Shown piece by piece: positions 25,300-36,557 of a DNA stretch of 63,522 bases (its first letter is position 1; every line of letters starts with the position of its first letter). The translations under genes were made by a program, and so were the position numbers. The stretch is from a virus (Duplodnaviria; Caudoviricetes): positions 1 to 63,522 of IMG/VR virus record IMGVR_UViG_3300032234_000384; one strand, written 5' to 3'. The notes below the pieces were generated by a model that saw nothing but the letters and a program-made list of their open reading frames with translations, was not told the origin of the DNA and searched no databases.

Positions 25300-25302
25300 A
25301 TC

Positions 25303-25384: not shown

Positions 25385-25387
25385 ATA

Positions 25388-25476: not shown

Positions 25477-25498
25477 CACCTTTCGGTGCCCATAGCCG

Positions 25499-26920
25499 TT
25501 ACAGCACTTTGTAACGGTCATCCATGATGGTCTTAAGCATCACAGATTCTGGTGTGAAGGTTTCAATGTCACCAGCAAGGAGTGGCTTAACCACGGCTGG
25601 AGAGAAACCAGACACCAGTGCAGTACCAGACTTGTCAAACTTCACAGGCGCATTGCCATATGAAGCGTTCAAGTTCCAGAATACAACCTTTGGAAGGGTG
25701 TAGCCTGCGGCTTCGTACTTACGTGCAATCATTTCGATTGCAGAGTCATCATGCTTGACACATTGGTCAAATTGCATGTCTGACAGAATCAACACCATTC
25801 CTGGCATATCTTCTTGTGCTACGTTACCTTTTACAGCAACGTCTAGGATTTTTGCAAAGGCCTTGTTCAGGTCAGTGTTCATATCCCAGTTGGACTTAAC
25901 CATTTGGTCAATCTTAGAATTGATACCACCCTTTAGGTGCATCAATTCTGGCTTACCAGAGAAGGTCAAGAATGTGTCCTTGAACGCACCCTTGTTCTTG
26001 TCAGCAAGGTACAATCCCAAAGAGACTGCAACTTCCAAACAGGTCAACTTACCAGTCTTGCCTGCGGTGCAGGTCATAGAACCAGATACGTCAACCAGAG
26101 GCAGAATGTTTGCATCACCAACATAGTTAGGCAATGCATTCCATTGTGCTTCAATCAAGTCCATTTCGGTCTTGTTGTATGTAACTCCATAGTTGGAGAT
26201 ACGACCCTTCAACACATCATATGGAAATACCGCAGATGCGTTAACCTTAACTTCAGGGTTATCACCCTTCACCAAAGATGCAACATATGCCGCATACTTT
26301 TCAGTGTTACGGTTGAAAGCCTTTTTGTAACGTGCAGACGCTACGGAAGGAACATGTGAGAAGTTAATGGAATCCCAGTCCTTTGCACACATGTTGGTTT
26401 CAACGACCTTGGTCATTTCGACCAAAGACTTACGGTAGAACTTTGGTGACATTCCGAAGAATGTACGGATTTCTGCCGCAATTGGACCTTGGCGAGGTGT
26501 CCACTTAGCCGCAAGTCCATTCTTTTCACGCAAAGCGTTACCGAGCATGGTGTATGCGGCTTCTTTCAGTGCCTTGGTCTTGAAGACAAACAAGTCATCC
26601 CAACGACCCAATTCTGGCACTTTAGCCAACAGAGCCTTAGCGGCTTCTGTATCAGTCTTTTCCAGATATACTAGGATATCACGGAAAAGTTGACGTTCAC
26701 CGGCACCACCACGTGCGTCACGTAGCCATGCGGCAACTCGTAGAGCCAATTCACGGTTCTCTGCCAAGGCAGCCGCAAATGCAGGCTTAATATCTTTTCC
26801 ACGGGATGCACCCGCATTGTAAAACAAATCTACCACCGCATTGGCAGTTGACTTGCGAGCCTTCATACCGTTTGTGGTACGGGCTTCTTGGTTCTTAACA
26901 GCTTCGACAAATGTTGACAT
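25499..26920 (-). CDS. DUF2828-type TROVE/Ro60-like protein with C-terminal vWA domain
   Basis: AAAAGGAG RBS; LRDARGGAGER, GRWDDL, AAKWTPR helical region; MIDAS DVSGSM and SDMQFD, VFWNL, SGFS. Confidence 0.8.
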   Translation of the reverse strand: MSTFVEAVKNQEARTTNGMKARKSTANAVVDLFYNAGASRGKDIKPAFAAALAENRELALRVAAWLRDARGGAGERQLFRDILVYLEKTDTEAAKALLAKVPELGRWDDLFVFKTKALKEAAYTMLGNALREKNGLAAKWTPRQGPIAAEIRTFFGMSPKFYRKSLVEMTKVVETNMCAKDWDSINFSHVPSVASARYKKAFNRNTEKYAAYVASLVKGDNPEVKVNASAVFPYDVLKGRISNYGVTYNKTEMDLIEAQWNALPNYVGDANILPLVDVSGSMTCTAGKTGKLTCLEVAVSLGLYLADKNKGAFKDTFLTFSGKPELMHLKGGINSKIDQMVKSNWDMNTDLNKAFAKILDVAVKGNVAQEDMPGMVLILSDMQFDQCVKHDDSAIEMIARKYEAAGYTLPKVVFWNLNASYGNAPVKFDKSGTALVSGFSPAVVKPLLAGDIETFTPESVMLKTIMDDRYKVL

Positions 26921-26939
26921 AATGAACTCCTTTTCAATC

Positions 26940-27060
26940 AACAGGTTAAACTTTTTGCATCCCCTATGCTACCATTACATTAGACACCCATTCGGGTGAG
27001 CCGGAATCGAACCGGTCTCGGGGTTTTCAGTTGCATTAAAATTGTTGCGGAACTTAACCT
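26940..27060 (-). ncRNA. Y-RNA-like RNA A1 containing a circularly permuted tRNA-Phe
   Basis: AGGTTAAG/TTTAACCT terminal stem, CCGCAA motif, then CTGAAAA, T-arm, closed acceptor stem, D-arm. Confidence 0.75.
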
Positions 27061-27068
27061 AAAAAAAC

Positions 27069-27168
27069 AACAGAATAGTTTTCTACTTTTTGATTTAAGT
27101 GAGAACTCGAAACTCACTATCTTATGATACGGGTATGAATCCGTGATAAGTGTTGCTGAAACTATTCT
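27069..27168 (-). ncRNA. Y-RNA-like RNA A2
   Basis: AGAATAG/CTATTCT stem, TTTCAGCAA; CAT-loop hairpin and T-arm-like hairpin. Confidence 0.7.
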
Positions 27169-27187
27169 AAAAATCTCCAAAAAAAAC

Positions 27188-27284
27188 AACAGAGTAGTTT
27201 GATTGCCACCTTGGCGATCACGCTAGTTTTGGTGCGTAACATAGGAATCGAACCTACAAATTTTGATTTTGCTGAACCTACTCT
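27188..27284 (-). ncRNA. Y-RNA-like RNA A3 with permuted tRNA domain
   Basis: AGAGTAG/CTACTCT stem, GTTCAGCAA; GTAGG-TTCGATT-CCTAT, GTTACGC-ACCA-loop-GCGTGAT, short D-arm. Confidence 0.75.
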
Positions 27285-27300
27285 AAAACTTTCAAAAAAT

Positions 27301-27522
27301 AACAGGATGGTCGGTTTGTATTTTAACTTGGTTCTTAAACCACAGAGTACCCTTACGGCAAATGCAACCCTCTGAAATCATATGGTTTACCATAATCTTT
27401 TCTGTCTTTCCAGAGTCCAATTTAGTTCAGGTTATTTCCCTAGCTTCGTAATTACACCTTACGGTGGTTCTCCTATAGAAGCACTTCAGCTTTAGTACGT
27501 TTAAACTTGCTGTATCCATCCT
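27301..27522 (-). ncRNA. Y-RNA-like RNA A4 (long)
   Basis: AGGATGG/CCATCCT stem, ATACAGCAA; ~200-nt multi-hairpin insert. Confidence 0.65.
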
Positions 27523-27550
27523 AAAAAACTTTAATAATCTCCATATAAAG

Positions 27551-27579
27551 ATTATATCACGTTAAGTGTAATTTGTCAA
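27551..27579 (-). promoter_or_regulatory. Consensus sigma70 promoter for the A4-A1 / DUF2828 operon
   Basis: TTGACA-17-TATAAT. Confidence 0.85.
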
Positions 27580-27611
27580 GTCTTTTTTAGCATTGTTGCC
27601 AAAAAACAACA

Positions 27612-27686
27612 TGGTGTCCTCAACAGGAATCGAACCTGTATCCAGAACTTAGGAGGTTCTTATTCTATCCGTTGAACTATAAGGAC
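27612..27686 (-). tRNA. tRNA-Arg(CCT)
   Basis: Cloverleaf, CTCCTAA, CCA. Confidence 0.9.
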
Positions 27687-27688
27687 GG

Positions 27689-27778
27689 TGGAGGAAGAAG
27701 GAGGAATTGAACCCCGACCAGCATCAGCCAGTCTTCCGCTTTCCAGGCGGACGTAGGAACCATCCTACTGCATCTTCC
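27689..27778 (-). tRNA. tRNA-Ser(GGA), apparent 8/4 fold
   Basis: CTGGAAA loop, long variable arm, 6-bp D stem, CCA. Confidence 0.8.
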
Positions 27779-27779
27779 G

Positions 27780-27856
27780 TGGTGCCTCAGGGGGGATTCG
27801 AGCCCCCAAAATCCAGTGTTTGAGACTGGCACGTATACCGATTCCGTCACCGAGGC
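27780..27856 (-). tRNA. tRNA-Leu(CAA), short variable loop
   Basis: CTCAAAC loop, CCA. Confidence 0.85.
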
Positions 27857-27857
27857 G

Positions 27858-28052
27858 TTATGTCATTTGATCTATGTTATTACCGATTTTTTGTGTCGAA
27901 TCTATTTGACCATTTTTCGTGTACGTTTGATACGTAAACTCTACCACATCTTTAATTTTTACTCCGGCATCATCAACAATGGTTTTCCTTTTTGTCGTGC
28001 GGATTAAATCGTAGTATATATGTGTTTGTGTTGATACAGAAGACACGTGCAT
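27858..28052 (-). CDS. Small hypothetical protein
   Basis: 64 aa, AAAGGAG RBS, fills the gap between tRNAs. Confidence 0.6.
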   Translation of the reverse strand: MHVSSVSTQTHIYYDLIRTTKRKTIVDDAGVKIKDVVEFTYQTYTKNGQIDSTQKIGNNIDQMT

Positions 28053-28068
28053 ATAGAAAACTCCTTTA

Positions 28069-28142
28069 TGGTGCTCTCAACAAGAATTGAACTTGTGTTT
28101 CACCCTTACCAAGGGTGTGTAATGCCATTATACTATGAGAGC
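28069..28142 (-). tRNA. tRNA-Thr(GGT)
   Basis: TTGGTAA loop, CCA. Confidence 0.9.
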
Positions 28143-28147
28143 GAAAT

Positions 28148-28275
28148 TGGTGGAGATGGTGGGATTCGAACCGCACACAAGAACTTTTACAGAGTTATAG
28201 CTTAGGTTGTTGCAGAACTTATCCTTTACAGGATAATTTTTTTGCTTTGCTATGCTACCATTACATCACATCTCC
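28148..28275 (-). ncRNA. tRNA-Tyr-like / Y-motif hybrid RNA A5
   Basis: GGAGATG/CATCTCC-ACCA acceptor, D-arm, inserted TTATCCT-GTAA-AGGATAA-GTTCTGCAA, CTGTAAA loop, T-arm. Confidence 0.75.
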
Positions 28276-28280
28276 AAAAT

Positions 28281-28355
28281 TGGTGGGGTGCCGCAGATTC
28301 AAACTGCGTTCTCTCGGCTTAAGAGGCCGGACTTCATCATCAAAGTTTGCTCCCC
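28281..28355 (-). tRNA. tRNA-Lys(CTT), atypical
   Basis: CTCTTAA loop, CCA; D-loop lacks GG. Confidence 0.75.
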
Positions 28356-28453
28356 ATATAGAAACACACTAACGAACCTGGTTGTGGGATTCGAACCCAC
28401 GTTTTCCCGTAGCACCAGCGGCACTGCTACTTACCGATCAATGTATTTCTATA
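28356..28453 (-). ncRNA. Long-terminal-stem ncRNA (family B) with internal T-arm
   Basis: TATAGAAATACATT/AGTGTGTTTCTATA stem; GTGGG-TTCGAAT-CCCAC inside. Confidence 0.6.
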
Positions 28454-28529
28454 TGGTGCGTCCTAGAGGGATCGAACCTCTTTCCACGGTGCTTCAAACC
28501 GTTGCTATGACCACATCAGCTAAAGACGC
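28454..28529 (-). tRNA. tRNA-Phe(GAA)
   Basis: TTGAAGC loop, CCA. Confidence 0.85.
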
Positions 28530-28581
28530 AAATGACACACTACTTATCTCATTGTACGCCGAGTGTCATGGCGATATTGAA

Positions 28582-28783
28582 TTTGTAAGTAGTTCCACCA
28601 CGTTATTGGAACCATTCAGCCGATTATACAAGTCCGGACGGCAGTCGGTACGCCACTTGGAATACTCGTCAGAGGAAACCCAAACGTTACTAAGATGGGA
28701 TACGAGCCCATACCTCTTTTTACACTGAAAGGTCCTTCGAAGTAACCTAGACAATGTGACTTTCTCTTGCTGACACTTACAAA
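28582..28783 (-). ncRNA. Probable divergent long member of the CAGCAA RNA family
   Basis: TTTGTAAGT/ACTTACAAA terminal stem followed by GTCAGCAA. Confidence 0.5.
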
Positions 28784-28786
28784 ACT

Positions 28787-28862
28787 TGGTACCTGGTGTT
28801 GGACTCGAACCAACATCGCTCTCCTTGTAAGGGAGACGTATCACCTCTCTACGCAACCAGGC
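28787..28862 (-). tRNA. tRNA-Val(TAC)
   Basis: CTTACAA loop, CCA. Confidence 0.88.
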
Positions 28863-28863
28863 A

Positions 28864-29106
28864 TTAATCTTCAAATACTGCAATCACATCATCAATGTGA
28901 ATGCGATACATTTCTTTCTCTATTTTATACGCTTTATTCCAATTTAGCAATAGTTCTTCACCAATCTTTACCGAATCAACGGAAGTGGCAACAACAATTG
29001 CACGATCCGGTTCCATTGAACTTTGTAAAATAATACCACCAGAAGAAACTTTCTCAGGTGCTTTTCGTTCAATGATAACACCATTATTCAATGGAACATA
29101 CGTCAT
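28864..29106 (-). CDS. groES: GroES-like co-chaperonin
   Basis: PL...VII, SSGGIIL, A.VVA, DDVIAV. Confidence 0.8.
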   Translation of the reverse strand: MTYVPLNNGVIIERKAPEKVSSGGIILQSSMEPDRAIVVATSVDSVKIGEELLLNWNKAYKIEKEMYRIHIDDVIAVFED

Positions 29107-29127
29107 AAAATATCCTTTTTAAAAAAT

Positions 29128-29202
29128 TGGGGTAACTAATGGGTATCGATCCCATGCTACGACTTTCACAGAGTCGGGTGCTACCATTACACCATAGCCA
29201 CC
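29128..29202 (-). tRNA. tRNA-His(GTG)
   Basis: CTGTGAA loop, G-1/C73, CCA. Confidence 0.88.
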
Positions 29203-29210
29203 ATAAAAAC

Positions 29211-29284
29211 TGGAGCGGGTAGAGAGAATCGAACTCTCACATTAACCTTGGCAAGGTCATAAGCTACCATTACATCATACCCGC
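29211..29284 (-). tRNA. tRNA-Gly(GCC)
   Basis: TTGCCAA loop, TCCA. Confidence 0.9.
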
Positions 29285-29290
29285 AACAAC

Positions 29291-29776
29291 TTAATCCGCC
29301 ATTTCTTGTTCTGCAAGAATCCGCTTTAGACGGTCTGCACAGAAAGAAGCGGCTGGTGCATCTGGTTTAACCATTGGTGTCATGTTACATGTACCTTTGA
29401 TATAACCAATTGCTTGTTGAACAACACAAGAAGAACCGTGTTCATCAGACTTGTTAAGGTCTAGGTGAACTTCAACATGACGGTCTTCTAGCACATCTTG
29501 CATTTCCTGAAACAACTCGGAAACTTTATATACTTCTGTCATCAGACGCATAGCAGGCTTGGACTTCTTGTGGTCATAATCCAATTCACGGTCAACAAAT
29601 CCGAAGATTTTACAACCGTGGCGACCATCGATATGAACAACGACAGCCAAAGCGTAATCTGCATACCAAACACCGTTAACACGCATACGTTCGGAATCTG
29701 CACCAAGGTAAACACGTGTGTCTGGACCTTGAGCCATAATAAAGTCTTTTACTTTTTGGATATCGAAATTTTTCAT
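29291..29776 (-). CDS. RNase H-like YkuK-family protein
   Basis: YLGADS, RL..E, EVHLDLN, KP.A.AAS..AD. Confidence 0.75.
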   Translation of the reverse strand: MKNFDIQKVKDFIMAQGPDTRVYLGADSERMRVNGVWYADYALAVVVHIDGRHGCKIFGFVDRELDYDHKKSKPAMRLMTEVYKVSELFQEMQDVLEDRHVEVHLDLNKSDEHGSSCVVQQAIGYIKGTCNMTPMVKPDAPAASFCADRLKRILAEQEMAD

Positions 29777-29791
29777 ATCATTTCCTTAAAT

Positions 29792-29865
29792 TGGCATCCC
29801 GCCAGGGACTCGAACCCCGACCAACAGTTTTGGAGACTGGTATGCTGCCATTACACTAGCGAGAT
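29792..29865 (-). tRNA. tRNA-Trp(CCA)
   Basis: CTCCAAA loop, GCCA. Confidence 0.9.
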
Positions 29866-29873
29866 ATTATTTT

Positions 29874-30047
29874 TCAACTACTTTTTTCAGAATTGGAATT
29901 AGCAAGTCTTACAAACTCCTCATCTTCAATTTTTTGATCTTCTTCTTCTTTCAAATCACGACTAAAGATTGCATCCCAACGTTTTGAGTATTCGTCATTT
30001 GCAATGCTGAATGGTCGTGGTCTTGAACCTTTTCCACCATCACTCAT
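29874..30047 (-). CDS. Small hypothetical protein
   Basis: MSDGGKGSRPRP...WDAIF; AAGGA RBS. Confidence 0.6.
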   Translation of the reverse strand: MSDGGKGSRPRPFSIANDEYSKRWDAIFSRDLKEEEDQKIEDEEFVRLANSNSEKSS

Positions 30048-30174
30048 ATAATCTTCCTTTAATGTCTTTTTGTTGAGCCTTGCGTTCTGTTTTCCAGAAC
30101 ACACGTTTAAAATCTCTTAGGTGTTTCCACCACTGTGGAGCACCAGTCAGATTGCCTTTTTTAACATTAGCCAT
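30040..30174 (-). CDS. Small basic hypothetical protein (44 aa, absent from ORF track)
   Basis: AGGAG RBS; MANVKKGNLTGAPQWWKHLRDFKRVFWKTER. Confidence 0.55.
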   Translation of the reverse strand: MANVKKGNLTGAPQWWKHLRDFKRVFWKTERKAQQKDIKGRLYE

Positions 30175-30191
30175 TTGGAACTCCTAAAAAT

Positions 30192-30266
30192 TGGCCGGTC
30201 CTGAGAGAATCAAACTCCCACTTCTAGGTTCGTAGCCTAGTGTAATATTCATTTTACTAAGGACCG
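30192..30266 (-). tRNA. tRNA-Arg(ACG)
   Basis: CTACGAA loop, GCCA. Confidence 0.85.
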
Positions 30267-30269
30267 AAT

Positions 30270-30344
30270 TGGTGGTGCTAGAAGGTACCGAGCCTTCCTC
30301 ATCGGCTTATGAAACCGTTACGCATCCGTCTACGTCATAGCACC
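30270..30344 (-). tRNA. tRNA-Met(CAT), atypical T-loop
   Basis: TTCATAA loop, ACCA. Confidence 0.75.
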
Positions 30345-30447
30345 ATATAGAAACACACTGATGTTTTGAGGCTCTTAAACTAGGCACGTGGACTTAATTT
30401 GCCAAATGCCACGGACTTCCCGGTCCTGATCTCAATGTGTTTTTATA
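30345..30447 (-). ncRNA. Long-terminal-stem ncRNA (family B)
   Basis: TATAAAAACACATTGA/TCAGTGTGTTTCTATA stem, near-identical to the ends of 28356-28453. Confidence 0.6.
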
Positions 30448-30522
30448 TGGTGGAATCACGGGGAATCGAACCCCGAACTGTAACTTGCAAGGCTACTGCG
30501 TTCCCAATTACGCCATGACCCC
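30448..30522 (-). tRNA. tRNA-Ala(TGC)
   Basis: CTTGCAA loop, G3-U70, ACCA. Confidence 0.92.
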
Positions 30523-30528
30523 ATATAC

Positions 30529-30591
30529 AACAGAATAGTTTTTGCGTTTTCAATTACAAGTTGAATGCTTTATATTTGCTGAACCTATTCT
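30529..30591 (-). ncRNA. Y-RNA-like RNA A6 displaying a Thr(TGT) anticodon arm
   Basis: AGAATAG/CTATTCT, GTTCAGCAA; TTCAA-CTTGTAA-TTGAA. Confidence 0.72.
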
Positions 30592-30596
30592 AAATC

Positions 30597-30755
30597 TTAC
30601 TTCTTGCTTGAAGGCTGACGGATATCAGACTTCAAAATATCAACGAAACTTTTAATAACCGATCCACGCTTATGTGCATCAAGTTCCGATGCGGCCAAAC
30701 GTTTCACACTCTTAGGCACTTTTACTGCCTTTGCATCATAACCACGACAAGTCAT
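30597..30755 (-). CDS. Small basic hypothetical protein (52 aa, absent from ORF track)
   Basis: AAGGAG RBS; MTCRGYDAKAVKVPKSVKRLAA. Confidence 0.55.
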   Translation of the reverse strand: MTCRGYDAKAVKVPKSVKRLAASELDAHKRGSVIKSFVDILKSDIRQPSSKK

Positions 30756-30776
30756 AAAAACTCCTTTTAATAAAAA

Positions 30777-30851
30777 TGGCTCCAGTGGCAGGGATCGAAC
30801 CTACGACCAATTGATTAACAGTCAACTGCACTACCGCTGTGCTACACTGGA
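30777..30851 (-). tRNA. tRNA-Asn(GTT)
   Basis: CTGTTAA loop, GCCA. Confidence 0.92.
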
Positions 30852-30859
30852 ATAAAAAC

Positions 30860-30925
30860 AACAGGATGATTTTTGTCGCTAGACAACCAAAAAGTTTAGC
30901 TAATTTTATTTGCTGTACTCATCCT
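30860..30925 (-). ncRNA. Y-RNA-like RNA A7
   Basis: AGGATGA/TCATCCT, GTACAGCAA; hairpin with TTTTGGT loop. Confidence 0.68.
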
Positions 30926-30931
30926 AAAAAC

Positions 30932-31005
30932 TGGTCTCGATGGCAAGAATCGAACTTGCGCCACATGCTCCCAAAGCACGGATGATACCATTTCACCACA
31001 CCGAG
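30932..31005 (-). tRNA. tRNA-Pro(TGG)
   Basis: TTTGGGA loop, ACCA. Confidence 0.9.
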
Positions 31006-31010
31006 AAAAC

Positions 31011-31076
31011 TGGAGCAGTCACTACGATTCCCACGTAGATGATGGGTGGACCCCATCACGGTTAATATCCGACTGC
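31011..31076 (-). ncRNA. Minimised tRNA-Gly-like RNA
   Basis: GCAGTC/GACTGC-TCCA acceptor, GGTCCAC loop, non-canonical D and T loops; 66 nt. Confidence 0.6.
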
Positions 31077-31084
31077 ATAAAAAC

Positions 31085-31158
31085 TGGAGCGGAGTGAGAG
31101 AATCGAACTCTCAACAACAGATTGGAAATCTGTAGTTTTACCATTAAACTAACCCCGC
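31085..31158 (-). tRNA. tRNA-Gly(TCC)
   Basis: TTTCCAA loop, TCCA. Confidence 0.92.
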
Positions 31159-31166
31159 AAAATACT

Positions 31167-31240
31167 TGGTGCCCCATGACAGAATCGAACTGCCGTAACC
31201 GCGTTACAAAGGCGGTGTAATACCATTATACTAATAGGGC
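31167..31240 (-). tRNA. tRNA-Thr(TGT)
   Basis: TTTGTAA loop, ACCA. Confidence 0.88.
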
Positions 31241-31245
31241 AAAAT

Positions 31246-31319
31246 TGGGAGCAGGTGACAGATTCGAACTGCCGATGCACCTGGCTTATGAGACCGGTGT
31301 GGTGACCACCCTACCTGCA
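31246..31319 (-). tRNA. tRNA-CAT with truncated D-arm (initiator-like 1:72 mismatch)
   Basis: CTCATAA loop, T-arm, CCA; D region only GGTGGTCACC. Confidence 0.6.
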
Positions 31320-31325
31320 AAACTT

Positions 31326-31354
31326 ATTATAACATACTTTATATATGTTGGCAA
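31326..31354 (-). promoter_or_regulatory. Sigma70-type promoter
   Basis: TTGCCA-17-TATAAT with TGn extension. Confidence 0.7.
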
Positions 31355-31355
31355 C

Positions 31356-31443
31356 TGGTGGAGCCTGAAGGAATCGAACCATCCGCCAACCACCCCTCAA
31401 TTAAAGGCAACGGATTTACAGTCCGCTGAGAGGAACAGGCTCC
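31356..31443 (-). tRNA. tRNA-Tyr(GTA) lacking a normal D-arm
   Basis: GCGGA-CTGTAAA-TCCGT, T-arm, ACCA; 10-nt D region and 25-nt variable region. Confidence 0.65.
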
Positions 31444-31451
31444 AAAAATAC

Positions 31452-31511
31452 AACAGAATCCGCTTTTAGTTTCATTTTCAGTGAAAGTTTTTTATTTGCT
31501 GAATGGATTCT
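31452..31511 (-). ncRNA. Y-RNA-like RNA A8 displaying a Phe(GAA) anticodon arm
   Basis: AGAATCC/GGATTCT, ATTCAGCAA; TTTCA-CTGAAAA-TGAAA. Confidence 0.72.
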
Positions 31512-31517
31512 AAAACT

Positions 31518-31591
31518 TGGTCCTCTCGACAAGAATTGAACTTGTGATAACCGCTTATCAAGCGGACGTTATACCATTTAACTACAAGAGG
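31518..31591 (-). tRNA. tRNA-Ile(GAT)
   Basis: TTGATAA loop, ACCA. Confidence 0.88.
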
Positions 31592-31600
31592 AAAACTAAC

Positions 31601-31675
31601 TGGCGGTCCTAAGGGGTAACGATCCCCTTCTTTTGGCGTGACAAGCCAACGTGCGTCCATGAACACTTTAGAACC
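31601..31675 (-). tRNA. tRNA-Asp(GTC)
   Basis: TTGTCAC loop, GCCA. Confidence 0.85.
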
Positions 31676-31682
31676 TAAAACA

Positions 31683-31758
31683 TGGTGCCCTAGGAGAGAC
31701 TCGAACTCTCAGAACCTGGTTTCTAAGACCAGTACGTATACCATTCCGTCACCAGGGC
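31683..31758 (-). tRNA. tRNA-Leu(TAG), short variable loop
   Basis: CTTAGAA loop, ACCA. Confidence 0.88.
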
Positions 31759-31768
31759 AAAAATCATT

Positions 31769-31842
31769 TGGTAGGGCTGGAGAGAATCGAACTCTCGTTG
31801 ACCGGTTAAAAGCCGGATATTCTGCCATTGAATTACAACCCC
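31769..31842 (-). tRNA. tRNA-Lys(TTT)
   Basis: CTTTTAA loop, ACCA. Confidence 0.9.
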
Positions 31843-31847
31843 ATACT

Positions 31848-32000
31848 ACCATTTGTTTAGTGTTATCGTGCCCATTTGCCAACAAAGGTGCTTCCTCTGG
31901 CAAGCGACTAGCGGTTATATTAGGACCTGTTCCTCGCACAGTTAGGCCCGCATAGCTATAGCGTCCTATAGCGATACCCTGATAACACTAAACAAATGGT
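31848..32000 (-). ncRNA. Long-terminal-stem ncRNA (family B-like)
   Basis: 20-bp perfect inverted repeat ACCATTTGTTTAGTGTTATC enclosing a GC-rich multi-hairpin core. Confidence 0.6.
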
Positions 32001-32071
32001 ACACCGTACGGGTAACGATCCCGTCTAGTCACCTTGAAAGGGTGATGACCTCACCTGAAGTCGAACGGTGT
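31997..32071 (-). tRNA. tRNA-Glu(TTC)
   Basis: CTTTCAA loop, ACCA. Confidence 0.85.
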
Positions 32072-32077
32072 ACAAAA

Positions 32078-32183
32078 AATTACACTTAACTTTTTAAAGA
32101 ACATTTGATTGATTTCTCAATTCATGGATGAATTATATCACAACCAGAATCTTTGTCAACCATGTTGTTGTAATTTAACAACA
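32078..32183 (-). promoter_or_regulatory. rrn-like promoter with boxB-boxA leader and upstream palindrome
   Basis: TTGACA-16-TATAAT (32159-32132); ATTGA-GAAA-TCAAT; TGTTCTTTAAAAA; TGTTG-N8-CAACA. Confidence 0.7.
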
Positions 32184-32191
32184 ACTAAATT

Positions 32192-32267
32192 TGGAGTCGG
32201 TAACAGGATTCGAACCTGCATGTAACGGATTTGCAATCCGCTCCCTAGCCTTTCGGGTCACACCGAC
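32192..32267 (-). tRNA. tRNA-Cys(GCA)
   Basis: TTGCAAA loop, TCCA. Confidence 0.9.
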
Positions 32268-32455
32268 ATATCTTTCTTGCGAGATATCCATCCATTATAC
32301 AACGGATCTTTTACCTCGTCAACACCAAACTTACCAACAATTTCAAAGTCCGGACCCTTGATGGTCACAAACTCATTCATATGTTTAGCAAGATTCATTG
32401 CTTCGGCAAGTGTAAGAACCTTGAACGATTCTTCTTTTCCTATCACTTTAAACAT
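32258..32455 (-). CDS. Small hypothetical protein
   Basis: AAGGTGAG RBS; FVTI...FEIVGKFGVD. Confidence 0.55.
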   Translation of the reverse strand: MFKVIGKEESFKVLTLAEAMNLAKHMNEFVTIKGPDFEIVGKFGVDEVKDPLYNGWISRKKDMSV

Positions 32456-32469
32456 ACTCACCTTTCATT

Positions 32470-32561
32470 TGGTACCTCGACTGAGAATCGAACTCAGATG
32501 AACCAATTATCTGTTGCTTACGGGATATAAATCCGCCGTTTTACCATTAAACTACCGAGGC
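32470..32561 (-). tRNA. tRNA-Ile(TAT) with an extra arm
   Basis: TTTATAT loop; extra hairpin AAGCAA-CAGATAA-TTGGTT; ACCA. Confidence 0.7.
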
Positions 32562-32562
32562 A

Positions 32563-32654
32563 TGGTGGTGAGTGTGGGATTTGAACCCACGGACCCAATT
32601 TCTTGAGCCAACACCTTAGCAGGGTGCCGATTTAAACCACTCATCCAACTCACC
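32563..32654 (-). tRNA. tRNA-Ser(GCT)
   Basis: CTGCTAA loop, long variable arm. Confidence 0.9.
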
Positions 32655-32662
32655 ATATTAAT

Positions 32663-32749
32663 TGGAGGAAGGTAACAGAATCGAACTGTCACCCCGTCAA
32701 GGATGGACCGGATTTCAAGTCCAGTTAGCTTCCAAAGCATCTACCTTCC
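32663..32749 (-). tRNA. tRNA-Ser(TGA)
   Basis: CTTGAAA loop, long variable arm, TCCA. Confidence 0.82.
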
Positions 32750-32751
32750 AA

Positions 32752-33165
32752 TTATGTTCCACGATAATACTTTGCCCTAGGTCTTCCTTGTTTCTTGTTT
32801 GCACCTTTCCAGGTTGCAGTCAATGAGTGACAATTTGGACATAAAAGTTTTAGATTATCTTCTTTGTTGTTGGTGTAATCACCATCAACATGTTCTAATT
32901 CTAATGGTATTTTGTCAGTAAATATGTTTGTTTTAGACCAACCACATTCACAACATTTGTTTTCATACTTCTCAAAAAGATAACGGCGTATATGATATGA
33001 TGTTGCGGTTTTACCTCGCATTCCATCATGTTCGTCGTTTTTCCATTGTTTGATGAATTCTTTATATTGATAGTCATTTTGACATTTAACATCACAATAT
33101 TTTTTATTCTGTGATGGATAAGCATCAAATTCTTTATTGCAACATAAACACTTATAAGTTTCCAT
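32752..33165 (-). CDS. HNH endonuclease
   Basis: CxxC pairs, LELEHVDG...N...NL.LLCPNCHS. Confidence 0.85.
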   Translation of the reverse strand: METYKCLCCNKEFDAYPSQNKKYCDVKCQNDYQYKEFIKQWKNDEHDGMRGKTATSYHIRRYLFEKYENKCCECGWSKTNIFTDKIPLELEHVDGDYTNNKEDNLKLLCPNCHSLTATWKGANKKQGRPRAKYYRGT

Positions 33166-33220
33166 AAAAATCTCCTTCAATATTATTTATACCGATAGTG
33201 ATTTATACAGTCGCTCATTA

Positions 33221-33317
33221 CCATATTAAAACACATTACCTTCACTCACTTACGATTGACGTAACCAGCGGAAGTTAATGACCTGCTCATGTGTCACTAT
33301 AACATGTTTTAATATGG
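33221..33317 (-). ncRNA. Long-terminal-stem ncRNA (family B)
   Basis: CCATATTAAAACATGTTA/TAATGTGTTTTAATATGG. Confidence 0.55.
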
Positions 33318-33388
33318 CACCCGAGGTAGGAATCGAACCTACAATAACAGAGTCAAAGTCTGGTGTGTTACCACTACACTACTCGGGA
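33315..33388 (-). tRNA. tRNA-Gln(TTG)
   Basis: CTTTGAC loop, GCCA. Confidence 0.9.
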
Positions 33389-33391
33389 TCA

Positions 33392-33497
33392 AATTACACT
33401 TAACTTTTTAAAGAACGTTGTTGATTTCTCAACTGAAGATACGTATTGTACAGGCTTTTTAAACTTTGTCAACACATGTTGTTGTAAGATTACAACA
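33392..33497 (-). promoter_or_regulatory. rrn-like promoter with boxB-boxA leader and upstream palindrome
   Basis: TTGACA-16-TACAAT (33472-33445); GTTGA-GAAA-TCAAC; CGTTCTTTAAAAA; TGTTG-N8-CAACA. Confidence 0.7.
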
Positions 33498-33502
33498 TCT
33501 CC

Positions 33503-33538
33503 AAACAAAAACCCTCAGATTTTTTAGGTCTGAGGGTT
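33503..33538 (-). terminator. Intrinsic terminator of the leader/attenuator
   Basis: AACCCTCAGA-loop-TCTGAGGGTT followed by a U-tract. Confidence 0.8.
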
Positions 33539-33565
33539 GTGAAACTTTGGTTTACTTTTATAGAT

Positions 33566-33682
33566 TTACCGTGTTCCACTACCCCCTACGTGCGCCCATG
33601 ACTGATTATCGCTACCAATAAACGGTGTGCGATACTCAACCTTTGAGGCTGTTATGGAGAGGGGTGTGTATAAATTTGTCAT
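33566..33682 (-). CDS. Leaderless 38-aa attenuator leader peptide
   Basis: MTNLYTPLSITASKVEYRTPFIGSDNQSWAHVGGSGTR; ATG 6 nt after the -10 box; 3' end overlaps the antiterminator strand. Confidence 0.65.
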   Translation of the reverse strand: MTNLYTPLSITASKVEYRTPFIGSDNQSWAHVGGSGTR

Positions 33683-33688
33683 AGTGCT

Positions 33689-33717
33689 ATTATATAGGCA
33701 TTTTTTTCTTTTGGCAA
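33689..33717 (-). promoter_or_regulatory. Sigma70-type promoter
   Basis: TTGCCA-17-TATAAT. Confidence 0.75.
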
Positions 33718-33736
33718 CACATTTTTAAAAATATTT

Positions 33737-34462
33737 TTAAATTTCTTTCCACTTACCATGTTCGATAGGTACCCAATGTTGTGGGTCACGGAGAATTTCA
33801 AACGTTGTCGGTGGCCATGTGATACCGTGGCTTGCAAGATGCGTTTGCACCAAATGTTCTGGATTGTATTTGACACCACGATTATACATCTGGTCAAAAT
33901 AATCTACTGCATCGGTATAAATTGACATGGCATGTGGAAGTCCAATGGCAAATTGGTCATTGAAGTTTGGTTCATAACCATATCGCTGATTGTTTGGAAT
34001 GTATATTGTACCTGGTGATTCCAATAAACATCTGTGTGCCAATTTCAAATCAATCGGCTCAGATAAACCTAAATCTGTACGTGAACGAATTACCAAATCG
34101 TATGCGTCAAGTTCTCTACGCCACATATCACAATACTGGAGGCACTTGTATTGTTGCCAAACGTTTGCTGGTGTACTGTTATATGGTTCATACTCTTTAG
34201 GTATTTCTCCTAATGCAGAAGGATCAAGAACCTCAATGAATTTGATTTTGTACCAAGGTGGTAGATGTGCTTGGAGTTTGTCTCTGACTTGACCGGCAGA
34301 TTTTAAATCACACCAATTCTCGGAGAGTTTTGGGTCCCATCCAAAATCTCTACGCCAAAATACGATGTAAACATCGATTGCTGATTTGGTTAGATTTTGT
34401 AATTGCGAATCAAAGTCTGCTGAGAATCGGGGATTACCCGTTAGTAGTAATGCGGTTTTCAT
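33737..34462 (-). CDS. Glycosyltransferase-like protein
   Basis: ALLLTGNPR, YDLVIRSRTD, NDQFA; paralog of 8293 and 9442. Confidence 0.6.
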   Translation of the reverse strand: MKTALLLTGNPRFSADFDSQLQNLTKSAIDVYIVFWRRDFGWDPKLSENWCDLKSAGQVRDKLQAHLPPWYKIKFIEVLDPSALGEIPKEYEPYNSTPANVWQQYKCLQYCDMWRRELDAYDLVIRSRTDLGLSEPIDLKLAHRCLLESPGTIYIPNNQRYGYEPNFNDQFAIGLPHAMSIYTDAVDYFDQMYNRGVKYNPEHLVQTHLASHGITWPPTTFEILRDPQHWVPIEHGKWKEI

Positions 34463-34973
34463 CGTTCACATGTTTCCATTTTATATCTTCTTTAACAATC
34501 GGAGCATCTGGATTAGATATACCCTCAAAAATATTCCAAAGTTCCTCTTTGACGGCAAATTTTGTCCAGAGTCCAGTTTCGAGACTGTATGCTTCTAGTT
34601 CCCAGGGGTGGTGATAGTAATCGATTGAATCGGCATCAACTGTTATACCTTTCCATTTCGAAAGTGTTTCATTTGTTTCACCATTAACGAATTGTTTTAT
34701 ATGCACCATTTCGTGTGCAAGTGTTTTGAATATCTCTGCGGCACCAATCCAAGGATGAATTTCAATTAAAAATTCTCTTGCTTTGTTTGATGCATTATAT
34801 TCTTCTATTGATGCTAGAGCCCAAACTTGCAGTTTGTCGTCAAATTTTATTGTGAGGAAAATGTTATCTCTTAGTCTTTTTGAAGGTATAAGATTTTCAG
34901 CATAAAAATCTACTGCCCTTTTCACGAAGGGTTTAAAATCTTTGTCTGGACAATTTATGACCTTGACTTGCAT
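34434..34973 (-). CDS. Zinc metallopeptidase-like protein
   Basis: TLAHEMVH..Q, PWELEA. Confidence 0.75.
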   Translation of the reverse strand: MQVKVINCPDKDFKPFVKRAVDFYAENLIPSKRLRDNIFLTIKFDDKLQVWALASIEEYNASNKAREFLIEIHPWIGAAEIFKTLAHEMVHIKQFVNGETNETLSKWKGITVDADSIDYYHHPWELEAYSLETGLWTKFAVKEELWNIFEGISNPDAPIVKEDIKWKHVNDENRITTNG

Positions 34974-35027
34974 TTTGACTCCAGTTTCTATTCATATTTA
35001 TCTACTGGAAAATTTCATATTATGAAA

Positions 35028-36461: not shown

Positions 36462-36477
36462 ATGGTTCCTTATTAAT

Positions 36478-36552: not shown

Positions 36553-36557
36553 AGTTT

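What the first reader, a model, noticed from the sequence alone, without database searches (positions are those of the whole stretch)
30529..31511. Minimal CAGCAA RNAs that display single anticodon stem-loops (possible tRNase decoys)
Seen: the only cargo of A6 (30529-30591) is TTCAA-CTTGTAA-TTGAA, a 5-bp stem with a canonical 7-nt Thr(UGU) anticodon loop. A8 (31452-31511) carries TTTCA-CTGAAAA-TGAAA, a canonical Phe(GAA) loop. A7 (30860-30925) has a weaker TTTTGGT (Gln UUG-like) loop, and A2 (27069-27168) has a CAT loop plus a T-arm-like hairpin. Inference: anticodon arms mounted on a protein-bound handle could act as decoys or sensors for anticodon nucleases, or titrate synthetases or modification enzymes. 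The phage's real tRNA-Phe has a different loop (TTGAAGC), which would fit altered tRNAs working alongside host-like decoys.
Basis: partly seen in the sequence, partly recalled or inferred. Interest (0 to 1): 0.85.

Follow-up and report, generated by a model that had tools for sequence, protein, structure and literature searches.

The report
Phage small RNAs displaying anticodon arms
Among the tRNA genes of a T4-like phage, next to a Ro-like protein gene, lie small RNAs that share one conserved handle and present a lone look-alike of a tRNA anticodon arm whose 'anticodon' letters change fast between related phages, which suggests a bait for proteins that read or cut tRNA anticodon loops.

Summary
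The window has eight minus-strand RNAs of one family: UUUU-AG, a 7-bp closing stem, N3, CAGCAA, cargo, the 3' stem strand ending CU, then GUUGU. They lie in a tRNA array upstream of a DUF2828/DUF7788 protein whose model matches only Ro60 structures. The handle accompanies this protein in very different phages (Felix-O1-like, Vibrio, Listeria, Campylobacter, Mycobacterium, cyanophage).

In 80 related loci plus the window, 67 of 90 distinct short cargos hold a 5-bp stem with a 7-nt loop (shuffles: mean 12). Forty-four loops read YU-NNN-RA (shuffles: mean 0.7). The consensus C-U-N-N-N-A-A equals that of the real tRNAs in the same loci. Stems covary, and positions 35 and 36 are the most variable columns between close relatives. 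Other family members carry whole or permuted tRNA-like bodies.

The signature is specific to some clades: 0 of 45 Felix-like short cargos are canonical. The stems are AU-rich, unlike real tRNAs.

The decoy function is untested. I rate bait for anticodon-loop-binding proteins at about 0.4. There is no Rfam family and I found no paper. A8-type RNAs nearly reach the Rfam threshold of dictyostelid Class I RNAs.

The parts
30528..30595 (-). A6, a minimal CAGCAA-handle RNA. Layout: UUU-AGAAUAG / GUU / CAGCAA / 10 nt / anticodon-arm mimic UUCAA-CUUGUAA-UUGAA ('UGU') / 10 nt / CUAUUCU / GUUG. tRNA-Ala starts 5 nt further on.
   Evidence: Fourteen distinct orthologous cargos keep the hairpin; 13 read CUUGUAA and one CUUCUAA.
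30549..30565 (-). A6 anticodon-arm mimic: 5-bp stem and 7-nt loop C32 U33 U G U A37 A38.
31451..31515 (-). A8, a minimal CAGCAA-handle RNA. Layout: UUUU-AGAAUCC / AUU / CAGCAA / 9 nt / UUUCA-CUGAAAA-UGAAA ('GAA') / 8 nt / GGAUUCU / GUUG. It lies between tRNA-Ile and a tRNA-Tyr-like gene.
   Evidence: Rfam RF01414 scores 33.2 bits over the full model length. Five orthologs with the same handle read GGA, GUC, GUU, GUU, GUU.
31470..31486 (-). A8 anticodon-arm mimic: 5-bp stem and 7-nt loop C32 U33 G A A A37 A38.
30859..30929 (-). A7. It has the same handle (AGGAUGA/UCAUCCU), but its cargo is not an anticodon arm: GCUA/UAGC stem, GG-containing loop, invariant GUCUAGCGACAAAA.
27068..27172 (-). A2. 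Handle plus two hairpins: a 4-bp stem with an 8-nt loop, and GUGAG-UUUCGAGUU-CUCAC.
26939..27064 (-). A1, with the CCGCAA variant of the handle. Cargo in order: a hairpin UUUUA-AUGCAAC-UGAAA, a T-arm, an acceptor-like stem closed by a loop, and a D-arm. This is a circularly permuted tRNA-like body. A1 ends just upstream of the Ro-like gene.
   Evidence: sequence read. No YrlA hit at E<=10.
27187..27288 (-). A3. Handle plus T-arm (GGUUCGAUUCC), a closed acceptor-like stem containing ACCA, and a D-arm-like hairpin. It has no anticodon arm.
27300..27526 (-). A4. Handle plus a 196-nt structured cargo of unknown kind, conserved in relatives.
28582..28783 (-). A5, a looser member. It has a 9-bp stem UUUGUAAGU and CAGCAA but no GUUG tail. 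Cargo is about 176 nt with a T-arm-like hairpin.
   Evidence: The stricter scan did not find it.
25499..26941 (-). Ro-like protein gene, the proposed partner of the handle. Pfam DUF2828 + DUF7788, a MIDAS DxSxS motif, and the Ro60 fold. An ATG at 26922 is the likelier start.
29291..29776 (-). YkuK-like RNase-H-fold protein (PF04308) inside the array. It co-occurs with the anticodon-arm type of RNA. This is a lead only.

Best explanation
A6 and A8 belong to a phage family of Y-RNA-like small RNAs. They are cut out of the tRNA-array transcript. A Ro60-fold protein (DUF2828/DUF7788) holds them through a conserved handle: a closing stem starting AG and ending CU, CAGCAA on the 5' side of an internal loop, an A-run on the 3' side, and a G-rich 3' tail.

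The handle carries exchangeable cargo made of tRNA parts. In the minimal forms the cargo is a single mimic of a tRNA anticodon arm: a 5-bp stem with loop C32-U33-NNN-A37-A38.

I propose that the displayed arm acts as bait for proteins that recognise anticodon loops. The most likely targets are host tRNA-cleaving defence nucleases. The bait would titrate them, or hand them to the Ro-like particle, and the triplet would be retuned as hosts change.

Shown here: the family, its strand, the linkage to the protein, the protein's fold, the conserved and covarying hairpin, the tRNA-like loop consensus, and the fast change at positions 35/36.

Inferred: that the protein binds the handle, that the RNAs are processed and abundant, and the whole bait function.
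For: Family and strand:
- There are 8 copies in the window with covarying stems.
- In 1.12 Mb of 80 related loci plus the window, 312 handle hits lie on the protein's strand and 45 on the other. Of the 312, 256 have the AG...CT stem. They occur in 76 of 80 loci and in the window.

Linkage to the protein across clades:
- Felix-O1-like loci: 114 hits against 4 on the other strand, in 27 of 27 loci.
- A diverse set: 110 against 2, in 54 of 79 loci.
- Copies lie directly beside the gene in Synechococcus phage BUCT-ZZ01, Vibrio phage CZ01, E. coli phage AYO145A, Listeria phage LMTA-34, Mycobacterium phage Rose5 and Campylobacter phage CP30A.

Protein: the AlphaFold2 model has pLDDT 91.9. All 12 PDB matches with E<=0.001 are Ro60/TROVE structures.

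Hairpin:
- 67 of 90 distinct short cargos have it (shuffles: mean 12.1).
- 44 are canonical (shuffles: mean 0.72).
- 42 of 69 alignment-anchored windows pair 5/5, against 0-1 in slid registers.
- There are 21 distinct stems, with 4-6 standard pair types at each of the five stem positions.

Loop consensus: C 50/67, U 61/67, N, N, N, A 55/67, A 58/67. In 528 distinct real tRNA arms of the same loci it is C/U, U 526/528, N, N, N, A 485/528, A 418/528.

Descent from tRNA-like bodies: other members carry D-arm, anticodon arm and T-arm in tRNA order, or arm, T-arm, closed acceptor and D-arm in permuted order, with the same loop types CUUCUAA, CUUUUAA and CUUAUAA.

Fast change: within close ortholog groups, position 35 changes 0.50-0.55 times per column and position 36 changes 0.20-0.45 times. 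Stems and the 3' spacer change 0.01-0.09 times, and CAGCAA 0-0.02 times.

Conflict context:
- The Felix-like homolog Bas63 gp130 counters the Ppl defence (PMC11482910, passages).
- RtcB, an RNA ligase and phosphoesterases follow the gene in Listeria phage LMTA-34.
Against: - No experiment or read data shows these RNAs, their ends or any binding. The metatranscriptome contigs laid mostly matched tRNA genes.
- The canonical loop is specific to some clades. It is found in 0 of 45 Felix-like short cargos (shuffles: mean 1.41). In the diverse set it is found in 7 of 58 (shuffles: mean 0.48), and some of those are close to this phage's clade. Only 16 of 58 there have any 5/7 hairpin.
- The stems are AU-rich (22% against 61% G+C) and no arm equals a real tRNA arm. 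RNAfold gives the hairpins only -0.4 to -2.7 kcal/mol, and they are not in the full-length minimum-energy folds of A6 and A8.
- The 'anticodons' are not a random tRNA sample. A is nearly absent at position 34 (1/67) and 35 (2/67). The UGG mimic has A37, where tRNA-Pro has G37 (recalled).
- The phage already encodes real tRNA-Thr(UGU) and tRNA-Phe(GAA).
- Bas63 gp130 alone, from a plasmid or in T7, restored plaquing on Ppl without the phage RNAs.
- A decoy must compete with very abundant tRNAs.
Confidence: 0.4

Rival explanations
1. Tether, as in the classical Y RNA model. The arm does not inhibit anything. It recruits a tRNA-handling enzyme to the Ro-like particle, so that damaged or unwanted tRNAs are repaired or degraded. 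Candidate enzymes are a repair ligase or kinase-phosphatase, a modification enzyme, or the array-encoded YkuK-like RNase-H-fold protein.
For: - Y RNAs tether Ro60 to effectors such as PNPase (abstracts and passages of PMC4201824).
- RtcB, an RNA ligase and phosphoesterases lie next to the gene in LMTA-34.
- The YkuK-like gene sits beside the Ro-like gene in Vibrio phage CZ01.
- YkuK-like genes occur in 51 of 80 loci of this clade, 0 of 27 Felix-like loci and 3 of 84 loci of the diverse set. In the 57 diverse-set loci that hold a handle RNA, all three with YkuK also have an anticodon-arm RNA, and 0 of the 48 without such an RNA have YkuK.
- The loop frame C32, U36, A37, A38 equals the determinants I recall for t6A37 formation (recalled, not checked).
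Against: - The co-occurrence follows phylogeny and depends on how much flank each locus holds, so it is not independent evidence.
- No repair genes were found in this window.
- A fixed enzyme partner does not explain the fast turnover of positions 35/36.
Confidence: 0.25
2. A structural or protein-binding hairpin, inherited from a tRNA-like ancestor. The 5-bp/7-nt U-turn hairpin is kept because the Ro-like protein or the RNA's stability needs it. The three middle bases point outward and are simply less constrained, so no anticodon-reading partner exists.
For: - Felix-like relatives also keep 5-bp/7-nt hairpins: 36 of 45 (shuffles: mean 14.3). Their middles are variable (AGGUAAA, AGAUAAA, AGCUAAA) but they lack U33. 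So the hairpin format is more general than the anticodon signature.
- The stems are AU-rich, unlike tRNAs.
- gp130 works without the phage RNAs.
Against: - The variable positions are not neutral. A is 1/67 and 2/67 at positions 34 and 35 in very A-rich cargos, and U or G fills position 34 in 63 of 67 loops, as at the wobble position of tRNA genes.
- The whole frame C-U...A-A matches tRNAs.
- Many short cargos of the diverse set have no such hairpin (42 of 58), so the handle protein does not need it.
Confidence: 0.2
3. Anti-anticodon guide. The displayed triplet pairs loop-to-loop with tRNAs of complementary anticodon, or with other pre-organised loops, and brings them to the Ro-like ring for protection or decay.
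For: - The triplet alone is retuned between close relatives, as expected of a specificity element.
- Anticodon-anticodon complexes are unusually stable for three base pairs (recalled).
Against: - The complementary sets are incoherent. UGU would fit Cys, Tyr or His anticodons. GAA would fit Glu or Lys. GUC, GUU and GUA would all fit Val or Ile. This is my own reading of the triplets.
- Three bases give little specificity.
- There is no supporting context.
Confidence: 0.1
4. Not functional RNAs. They are spacer or processing signals of the tRNA array, terminators, or a mobile repeat.
For: - They lie between tRNAs, 5-12 nt from the neighbours.
- Handles and cargos are recombined between phages.
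Against: - The same handle stands beside the Ro-like gene in Rose5 and CP30A, where those copies are not flanked by tRNAs.
- Both stems covary, CAGCAA is invariant, and the strand bias is strong.
- There is no G+C-rich hairpin followed by a U-run.
Confidence: 0.03

Closest known systems
Bacterial and phage Y RNAs of the YrlA type with Ro60/Rsr (Rfam RF02553; Chen et al. 2014, PMC4201824, abstract and passages read)
   Same: - Small RNAs encoded next to a Ro60-fold protein.
- The 5' and 3' ends form a stem.
- A module mimics tRNA. A1, A3 and the Rose5 copy have T-arm, closed acceptor and D-arm in the YrlA order. The Rose5 copy aligns to RF02553 over those arms at 36.4 bits.
   Different: - The protein is Pfam DUF2828/DUF7788, not TROVE.
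- The handle (CAGCAA, A-run, CUG tail) is not the YrlA stem.
- No window copy hits RF02553 at E<=10, and the best score is far below the threshold of 69 bits.
- There are many copies per genome.
- The minimal forms show only an anticodon arm, the one arm that YrlA lacks.
Dictyostelid Class I RNAs (Rfam RF01414; Kjellin et al. 2021, PMC7919456, passages read)
   Same: - About 60 nt long.
- A short stem joins the ends, with a conserved 5' G paired to C.
- The motif ...CAGCAA stands next to the 5' strand of the stem. The positions reported as invariant (C..CAA) are kept in both the CAGCAA and CCGCAA forms.
- The middle is variable.
- The mature 3' end is CUGU; the phage RNAs end CU+GU.
- All four A8-type RNAs scanned hit the full model at 33.2-40.4 bits, best E=3e-4 in a 63-kb search of all families.
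   Different: - All scores are below the gathering score of 41.5.
- Only the A8 type hits.
- There are 3 rather than 5 nt between the stem and CAGCAA.
- Class I RNAs have a eukaryotic promoter element and a known RRM partner (Rnp1A/CIBP), and the authors found them only in Dictyostelia.
- I could not test whether dictyostelids have a DUF2828 protein.
Phage tRNAs that evade or replace tRNAs cut by host anticodon nucleases (for example the T5 tRNA-Lys against PARIS, PMC11464382, seen in a search listing only; mycobacteriophage tRNAs with altered loops, recalled)
   Same: - A phage tRNA array in a conflict centred on anticodon loops.
- This phage's tRNA-Phe has an unusual loop, UUGAAGC.
   Different: Those are complete, decoding tRNAs. 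A6 and A8 have no D-arm, T-arm or acceptor end and are not called tRNA by ARAGORN or Rfam.
T4 stable RNAs C and D in the tRNA cluster (recalled, not checked)
   Same: Small stable RNAs of unknown function, co-transcribed and processed with phage tRNAs.
   Different: I know of no shared motif, and no Ro-like gene is recalled in T4. Not tested here.

Membership tests
Y RNA (partner of a Ro60-type protein) | Encoded next to a Ro60 ortholog | tested here: met
   The gene at 25499-26941 has the Ro60 fold: all 12 PDB hits at E<=0.001 are Ro60/TROVE. RNA copies lie beside it in all clades sampled. By Pfam, however, it is DUF2828/DUF7788 and not TROVE.
Y RNA (partner of a Ro60-type protein) | The 5' and 3' ends pair into a stem that holds the protein-binding site | tested here: inconclusive
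   A covarying terminal stem with conserved flanking motifs is present. Binding cannot be tested here.
Y RNA (partner of a Ro60-type protein) | Physically bound to the protein in cells | not testable with these tools
   Needs immunoprecipitation or a gel-shift assay.
YrlA (Rfam RF02553) | Reaches the family's gathering score of 69 bits | tested here: not met
   There is no hit at E<=10 in window 26900-27320 and none at E<=1 in 24000-38000. The Rose5 copy scores 36.4 bits.
YrlA (Rfam RF02553) | tRNA-like domain with T-arm, closed acceptor stem and D-arm | tested here: not met
   A1 and A3 have it. A6 and A8, the subject of this finding, do not.
Dictyostelid Class I RNA (Rfam RF01414) | Reaches the gathering score of 41.5 bits | tested here: not met
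   A8 scores 33.2 bits. Its orthologs score 40.4 (L006), 38.6 (L012) and 34.5 (L001). A6, A7 and the other members give no hit at E<=10.
Dictyostelid Class I RNA (Rfam RF01414) | Terminal stem with 5' G, an 11-nt motif ending CAGCAA, and a 3' CUGU | tested here: met
   Alignment and consensus, compared with the passages of PMC7919456. The motif is 2 nt shorter on its 5' side.
Dictyostelid Class I RNA (Rfam RF01414) | DUSE promoter about 60 nt upstream; dictyostelid genome | tested here: not met
   This is a phage record with T4-like genes. The RNAs lie within a tRNA array.
tRNA | Cloverleaf recognised by ARAGORN or Rfam RF00005 | tested here: not met
   A6 and A8 are not among the 29 ARAGORN genes or the Rfam tRNA hits.
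tRNA anticodon arm (as a structural module) | 5-bp stem, 7-nt loop, U33, purine 37 | tested here: met
   A6 has CUUGUAA and A8 has CUGAAAA. Clade-wide, 47 of 67 loops fit Y32-U33-NNN-R37 and 44 also have A38.
tRNA anticodon arm (as a structural module) | Stem composition and sequence like real tRNAs of the phage or host | tested here: not met
   22% against 61% G+C. None of 42 distinct hairpins equals any of 528 real arms. The host is unknown.

The most novel reading that the evidence does not exclude
The anticodon arms are host-tuned RNA baits, held by a Ro-like protein, that neutralise tRNA-cutting defence nucleases. This would be an RNA-based, quickly retunable anti-defence system carried by a very large phage protein family. 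Its handle may be the same device as in dictyostelid Class I RNAs, which would give both DUF2828 proteins and Class I RNAs their missing partners.
Probability: 0.25. Interest if true: 0.9.

Novelty: new variant of a known kind. Interest (0 to 1): 0.8.

Why it matters
The DUF2828 Ro-like protein is common in phages. It matched 700 phage records and 6,099 protein clusters at 50% identity. One member is a proven counter-defence gene (PMC11482910). Two papers guessed that it has Y RNA partners, but neither identified them.

This analysis defines a candidate partner RNA family that can be searched with a simple handle rule. It shows that the cargo is built from tRNA parts. It also shows that in one clade a lone anticodon arm is conserved while its triplet turns over.

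That makes several questions directly testable:
- what phage Ro-like particles do;
- whether RNA mimics of single tRNA arms act in the conflict over tRNA cleavage;
- whether dictyostelid Class I RNAs, of unknown mechanism, use the same protein-RNA device.

Tried and rejected
- Expression. One search found 5 metatranscriptome runs, each holding 5-7% of the sampled words. I laid four of them. Their contigs mostly cover tRNA genes, with many mismatches (relatives or other organisms). They show nothing usable about A6 or A8, their ends or their level.
- RNA-side linkage test. Only 9 of the 119 matches had a 3' partner for the stem. Of the 80 matches checked by tblastn, 1 lay in a locus with the protein. 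That is chance level for a collection of this size, so the scan was uninformative.
- My 'own genome' pattern was one N too long and found nothing. The record is only the window.
- Searches that returned nothing: megablast of the array against phages; a sequence search of PDB with the protein; a search for longer homologs; earlier notes of this scan.
- Pseudoknot CAGC:GUUG. It is possible on paper (4 bp) but leaves no linker across the 7-bp stem. I rejected it on steric reasoning only.
- Listeria phage expression claim. The CAGCAA trio maps to 25,259-25,575 of phage cka15. The one highly transcribed region whose coordinates I saw is 26,236-26,727 (PMC12282133, passages). So I cannot say that the trio is among the three abundant RNAs. 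Supplements were not available.
- RtcB and RNA ligase next to the gene are not general: they occur in 1 of 6 named loci and in at most 1 of the 191 metagenomic loci with the protein.
- Dictyostelium DUF2828. I found no tool route to eukaryotic proteomes. DDB_G0281243, which was pulled down with a Class I RNA, is named only in the preprint of the Class I paper.
Full report
**What the window is.** The record is a 63.5-kb fragment of a T4-like phage. It has a portal, a major head protein, a clamp loader and a gp43-type polymerase about 50% identical to those of cyanomyophages. Between 25.2 and 36.6 kb the minus strand carries a tRNA array. ARAGORN finds 29 genes, and Rfam adds at least a tRNA-Tyr-like gene at 31359-31444.

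**The observation.**
- A6 reads UUU-AGAAUAG-GUU-CAGCAA-AUAUAAAGCA-UUCAA-CUUGUAA-UUGAA-AACGCAAAAA-CUAUUCU-GUUG.
- A8 reads UUUU-AGAAUCC-AUU-CAGCAA-AUAAAAAAC-UUUCA-CUGAAAA-UGAAA-CUAAAAGC-GGAUUCU-GUUG.
- A scan for C[AC]GCAA preceded by a stem whose complement follows within 330 nt finds eight copies (A1-A8). The stems differ and covary: AGAAUAG, AGAGUAG, AGGAUGG, AGGAUGA, AGAAUCC, AGGUUAA and others.
- CAGCAA is over-represented in the window: 56 occurrences against 35.4 expected, and 0 of 100 shuffles reach 56.
- The phage's tRNA-Phe loop is UUGAAGC, as stated.

**The neighbour is a Ro-like protein.** A1 ends just upstream of the gene at 25499-26941.
- Its product is phrog_850 'RNA-binding protein' and Pfam DUF7788 (E=2.8e-49) plus DUF2828 (E=2.2e-22). 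It is not TROVE.
- An alignment of 76 family members shows a MIDAS-type DxSxS motif.
- The AlphaFold2 model is confident (pLDDT 91.9, pTM 0.90).
- All 12 PDB matches with E<=0.001 are Ro60/TROVE structures from frog, human, Deinococcus and Thermus phage. The query TM-score is up to 0.67.
- The family is large: 700 phage records and 6,099 clusters at 50% identity.

**The handle goes with the protein.**
- I fetched 80 loci encoding relatives 67-96% identical. In these plus the window (1.12 Mb) the handle rule gives 312 hits on the protein's strand and 45 on the other.
- Of the 312, 256 have the AG...CT stem. They lie in 76 of 80 loci and in the window.
- A MAFFT alignment of 94 distinct short members shows invariant A5 G6, C15, G17 C18 A19 A20, an A-run before the 3' strand of the stem, and C-U-G-U-U after it.
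- With a stricter rule (second base G, penultimate C, next base G) the count is 114 against 4 in 27 of 27 Felix-O1-like loci, 9 against 0 in 3 of 5 distant loci, and 110 against 2 in 54 of 79 loci of a diverse set.
- In annotated genomes the copies stand directly beside the gene: three just upstream in Listeria phage LMTA-34, three just downstream in Mycobacterium phage Rose5, two upstream in Campylobacter phage CP30A, four at the head of the tRNA array that follows the gene in E. coli phage AYO145A, and others in Vibrio phage CZ01 and Synechococcus phage BUCT-ZZ01.
- This is the pattern of a protein and its RNA partner. Binding itself is inferred.

Cargo lengths fall into two groups: 125 of 256 are 29-54 nt and 131 are 65-241 nt. 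The 125 short ones give 90 distinct cargos in 33 sequence clusters.
- Sixty-seven of the 90 hold a 5-bp stem with a 7-nt loop (200 dinucleotide shuffles: mean 12.1, max 22). Forty-four loops fit [CT]T...[AG]A (mean 0.72, max 3).
- Picking hairpins by pairing is circular, so I also anchored 23-nt windows on the MAFFT columns of the loop. Forty-two of 69 distinct windows pair 5/5 and 13 more pair 4/5. With the 3' strand slid by 1-3 nt, 0 or 1 pair 5/5. Five hundred column shuffles give mean 3.7, max 10.
- There are 21 distinct stems among 42 distinct hairpins, and each of the five pair positions shows 4-6 standard pair types.
- Loop composition: position 32 C 50, A 14, U 3; position 33 U 61/67; position 34 U 37, G 26, C 3, A 1; position 35 G 31, U 28, C 5, A 2; position 36 U 43, A 16, C 6, G 2; position 37 A 55/67; position 38 A 58/67.
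- In 528 distinct anticodon arms from the 1,420 real tRNAs of the same loci the frame is the same: position 32 C 337, U 187; position 33 U 526; position 37 A 485; position 38 A 418.

**The triplet turns over.** RNAs with the A8 handle in six phages are nearly identical, yet their loops read CUGAAAA, CUGGAAA, CUGUCAA, AUGUUAA, CUGUUUA and CUGUUAA.
- Across 10-11 groups of close orthologs, the minimum number of changes per column is 0.50-0.55 at position 35 and 0.20-0.45 at position 36.
- It is 0.20-0.32 in the first spacer, 0.01-0.09 in the arm's stems and the 3' spacer, and 0-0.02 in CAGCAA. The result is the same whether or not positions 34-36 are masked when forming the groups.
- The numbers are small and the groups are related. 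It is still the clearest signal in these RNAs.
- The variable positions are not free, because A is almost excluded at 34 and 35 although the cargos are very A-rich.

**Descent from tRNA-like bodies.** Among 107 distinct longer cargos, 52 contain a T-arm motif.
- Some have a D-arm, an anticodon arm (CUUCUAA, CUUUUAA or CUUAUAA) and a T-arm in tRNA order, with the handle where the acceptor stem would be.
- Others, including A1, the AYO145A copy at L083 14428-14555 and two loci with CUGUAAA, have an arm, T-arm, closed acceptor stem and D-arm. That is a tRNA opened between positions 26 and 27 and closed by the handle.
- A3 has the same arrangement without the arm.
- The Rose5 copy aligns to Rfam YrlA over T-arm, acceptor and D-arm at 36.4 bits, below the threshold of 69. 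No window copy hits YrlA.
- The minimal RNAs therefore look like members that kept only the anticodon arm. This argues that the likeness is inherited and maintained, not accidental.

**Limits.**
- The canonical loop is specific to some clades. Felix-like phages keep 5-bp/7-nt hairpins (36 of 45; shuffles: mean 14.3), but none is canonical (shuffles: mean 1.41). Their loops (AGGUAAA, AGAUAAA, AGCUAAA, CACGAAA, UGCGGAU, GCGCAUA) lack U33.
- In the diverse set only 16 of 58 short cargos have such a hairpin (shuffles: mean 7.0) and 7 are canonical (shuffles: mean 0.48). Some of those phages are near the window's clade.
- Single canonical or near-canonical arms do occur far away: Rose5 AUGGUAA, CP30A CUGCUAA, CZ01 AUUUUGA, BUCT-ZZ01 CUUUUAC.
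- The stems are AU-rich (22% G+C against 61%) and match no real arm.
- The hairpins are marginal in free energy.
- A7 and A2 are not anticodon arms.

**Function.** Nothing here measures function. The context is as follows.
- In the Felixounavirus Bas63, gp130 is described as structurally like Ro60 and as lying directly upstream of the tRNA genes. It counters the Ppl defence. The authors guessed that some 'tRNAs' are Y RNAs. However, gp130 alone also rescued T7 (PMC11482910, passages). I did not verify that gp130 is the DUF2828 homolog beyond this description and the identical gene position in AYO145A.
- In the Listeria phage cka15 the homolog was found in purified virions, and abundant non-coding transcripts lie within 2 kb upstream (PMC12282133, passages). 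My mapping does not show that these transcripts are the CAGCAA trio.
- RtcB, an RNA ligase and phosphoesterases follow the gene in LMTA-34 but not elsewhere.

Taken together, a role in the conflict over tRNA integrity is the best-supported setting. I rate bait for anticodon-loop-binding proteins, above all host anticodon nucleases, at about 0.4. I rate a Y-RNA-style tether for a tRNA enzyme or the YkuK-like protein at 0.25, a merely structural hairpin at 0.2, an anti-anticodon guide at 0.1, and a non-RNA explanation at 0.03.

**Comparison and novelty.** Rfam 15 has no family for these RNAs. The only non-tRNA hit is RF01414, dictyostelid Class I RNA.
- A8 scores 33.2 bits and its orthologs 34.5-40.4, against a threshold of 41.5. 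The best E is 3e-4 in a 63-kb search of all families.
- The published description matches point by point: about 60 nt, a terminal stem with a conserved 5' G, an 11-nt motif ending CAGCAA with C..CAA invariant, a variable middle, and CUGU at the 3' end.
- Membership fails on score, promoter and host. Common ancestry or convergence on one kind of protein remains open.

Searches of the paper library found no description of this RNA family or of arm-only mimics. The searches were: DUF2828; YrlA/Y RNA/tRNA-like; Ro-like/phage/tRNA/Y RNA; anticodon nuclease/decoy/phage-encoded/anticodon stem-loop/tRNA mimic; and CAGCAA with noncoding RNA, bacteriophage and tRNA. Supplements were closed, so tables there may hold more.

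I file the finding as a new variant of a known kind: Y-RNA-like tRNA mimics with a Ro-fold protein.

Noticed in passing
window 31451-31515 (A8); L006 4086-4139; L012 4938-4992; L001 1534-1587: These are near-threshold, full-length matches to Rfam RF01414 (dictyostelid Class I RNA), at 33.2-40.4 bits against a threshold of 41.5. Shared features are the terminal stem, CAGCAA and the 3' CUGU. One of the four proteins pulled down with a Class I RNA, DDB_G0281243, has no known function (preprint passage).
   Followed up: partly
window 28345-28456 (-) and 30338-30450 (-): Two RNAs share a different, roughly 20-bp terminal stem (CCAUAUAGAAAUACA...UGUGUUUCUAUAUGG). The first encloses a T-arm-like hairpin GUGGGUUCGAAUCCCAC. 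Fold z-scores are -4.6 and -3.7. This is a second family of structured RNAs in the array.
   Followed up: partly
window 31848-31994 (-) and 31004-31086 (-): Two more structured intergenic RNAs. One is 147 nt, closed by a 14-bp stem (z -3.6). The other is a roughly 60-nt three-way junction between tRNA-Pro and tRNA-Gly (z -2.5).
   Followed up: no
window 28143-28280 (-): A tRNA-like gene with an acceptor stem, D-arm, T-arm and encoded CCA, but with an insert of about 65 nt where the anticodon arm should be. The insert contains AGCAAAGCAA and CUGCAA. ARAGORN does not call it, and Rfam gives only a weak tmRNA hit.
   Followed up: no
window 31359-31444 (-): A long-arm tRNA, probably tRNA-Tyr (GUA), that ARAGORN missed. 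Rfam scores it 33.5 bits as tRNA-Sec.
   Followed up: no
window 29291-29776 (-); L082 13511-14029: A YkuK-like RNase-H-fold gene (PF04308) sits in the array here and directly after the Ro-like gene in Vibrio phage CZ01. Across loci it tracks the anticodon-arm type of RNA: 51 of 80 in this clade, 0 of 27 Felix-like loci, and 3 of 84 in the diverse set, all three with arm RNAs. The pattern is confounded by kinship and by flank length.
   Followed up: partly
L001-L080 (alignment A1): Handles and cargos are recombined. The same cargo (for example GCAUUCAACUUGUAAUUGAAAACGC) occurs on handles AGAAUAG, AGGAUAG, AGAGUAG and AGGAUCG, and one handle carries different cargos.
   Followed up: no
window 30859-30929 (A7) and 9 distinct relatives: The A7 class keeps a 4-bp GCUA/UAGC stem with a 13-15-nt loop containing GG, plus an invariant GUCUAGCGACAAAA. 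It is reminiscent of a D-arm, but this was not tested.
   Followed up: no
L206-L232 (Felix-O1-like): The hairpin UCUGA-NNNNNAA-UCGGA keeps its stem while its loop reads AGGUAAA, AGAUAAA, AGCUAAA, AAGUUAA or CACGAAA. The loop centre is variable here too, but there is no U33.
   Followed up: partly
L238-L316 (diverse set), handles TGGTTCC and AGATTCC: Many short cargos have no hairpin but repeat AGCAA or CGCAA two or three times (for example ...AAAGCAAAACUAUUAAGCAAAUGG...). These may be extra copies of the protein-binding word.
   Followed up: no
L084 (Listeria phage LMTA-34) 6006-7077 and 7667-7932: The three CAGCAA RNAs lie 70-340 nt upstream of the Ro-like gene. A further unannotated stretch of about 1 kb upstream corresponds to the highly transcribed region 26,236-26,727 reported for phage cka15. 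The Ro-like protein was reported in purified virions.
   Followed up: partly
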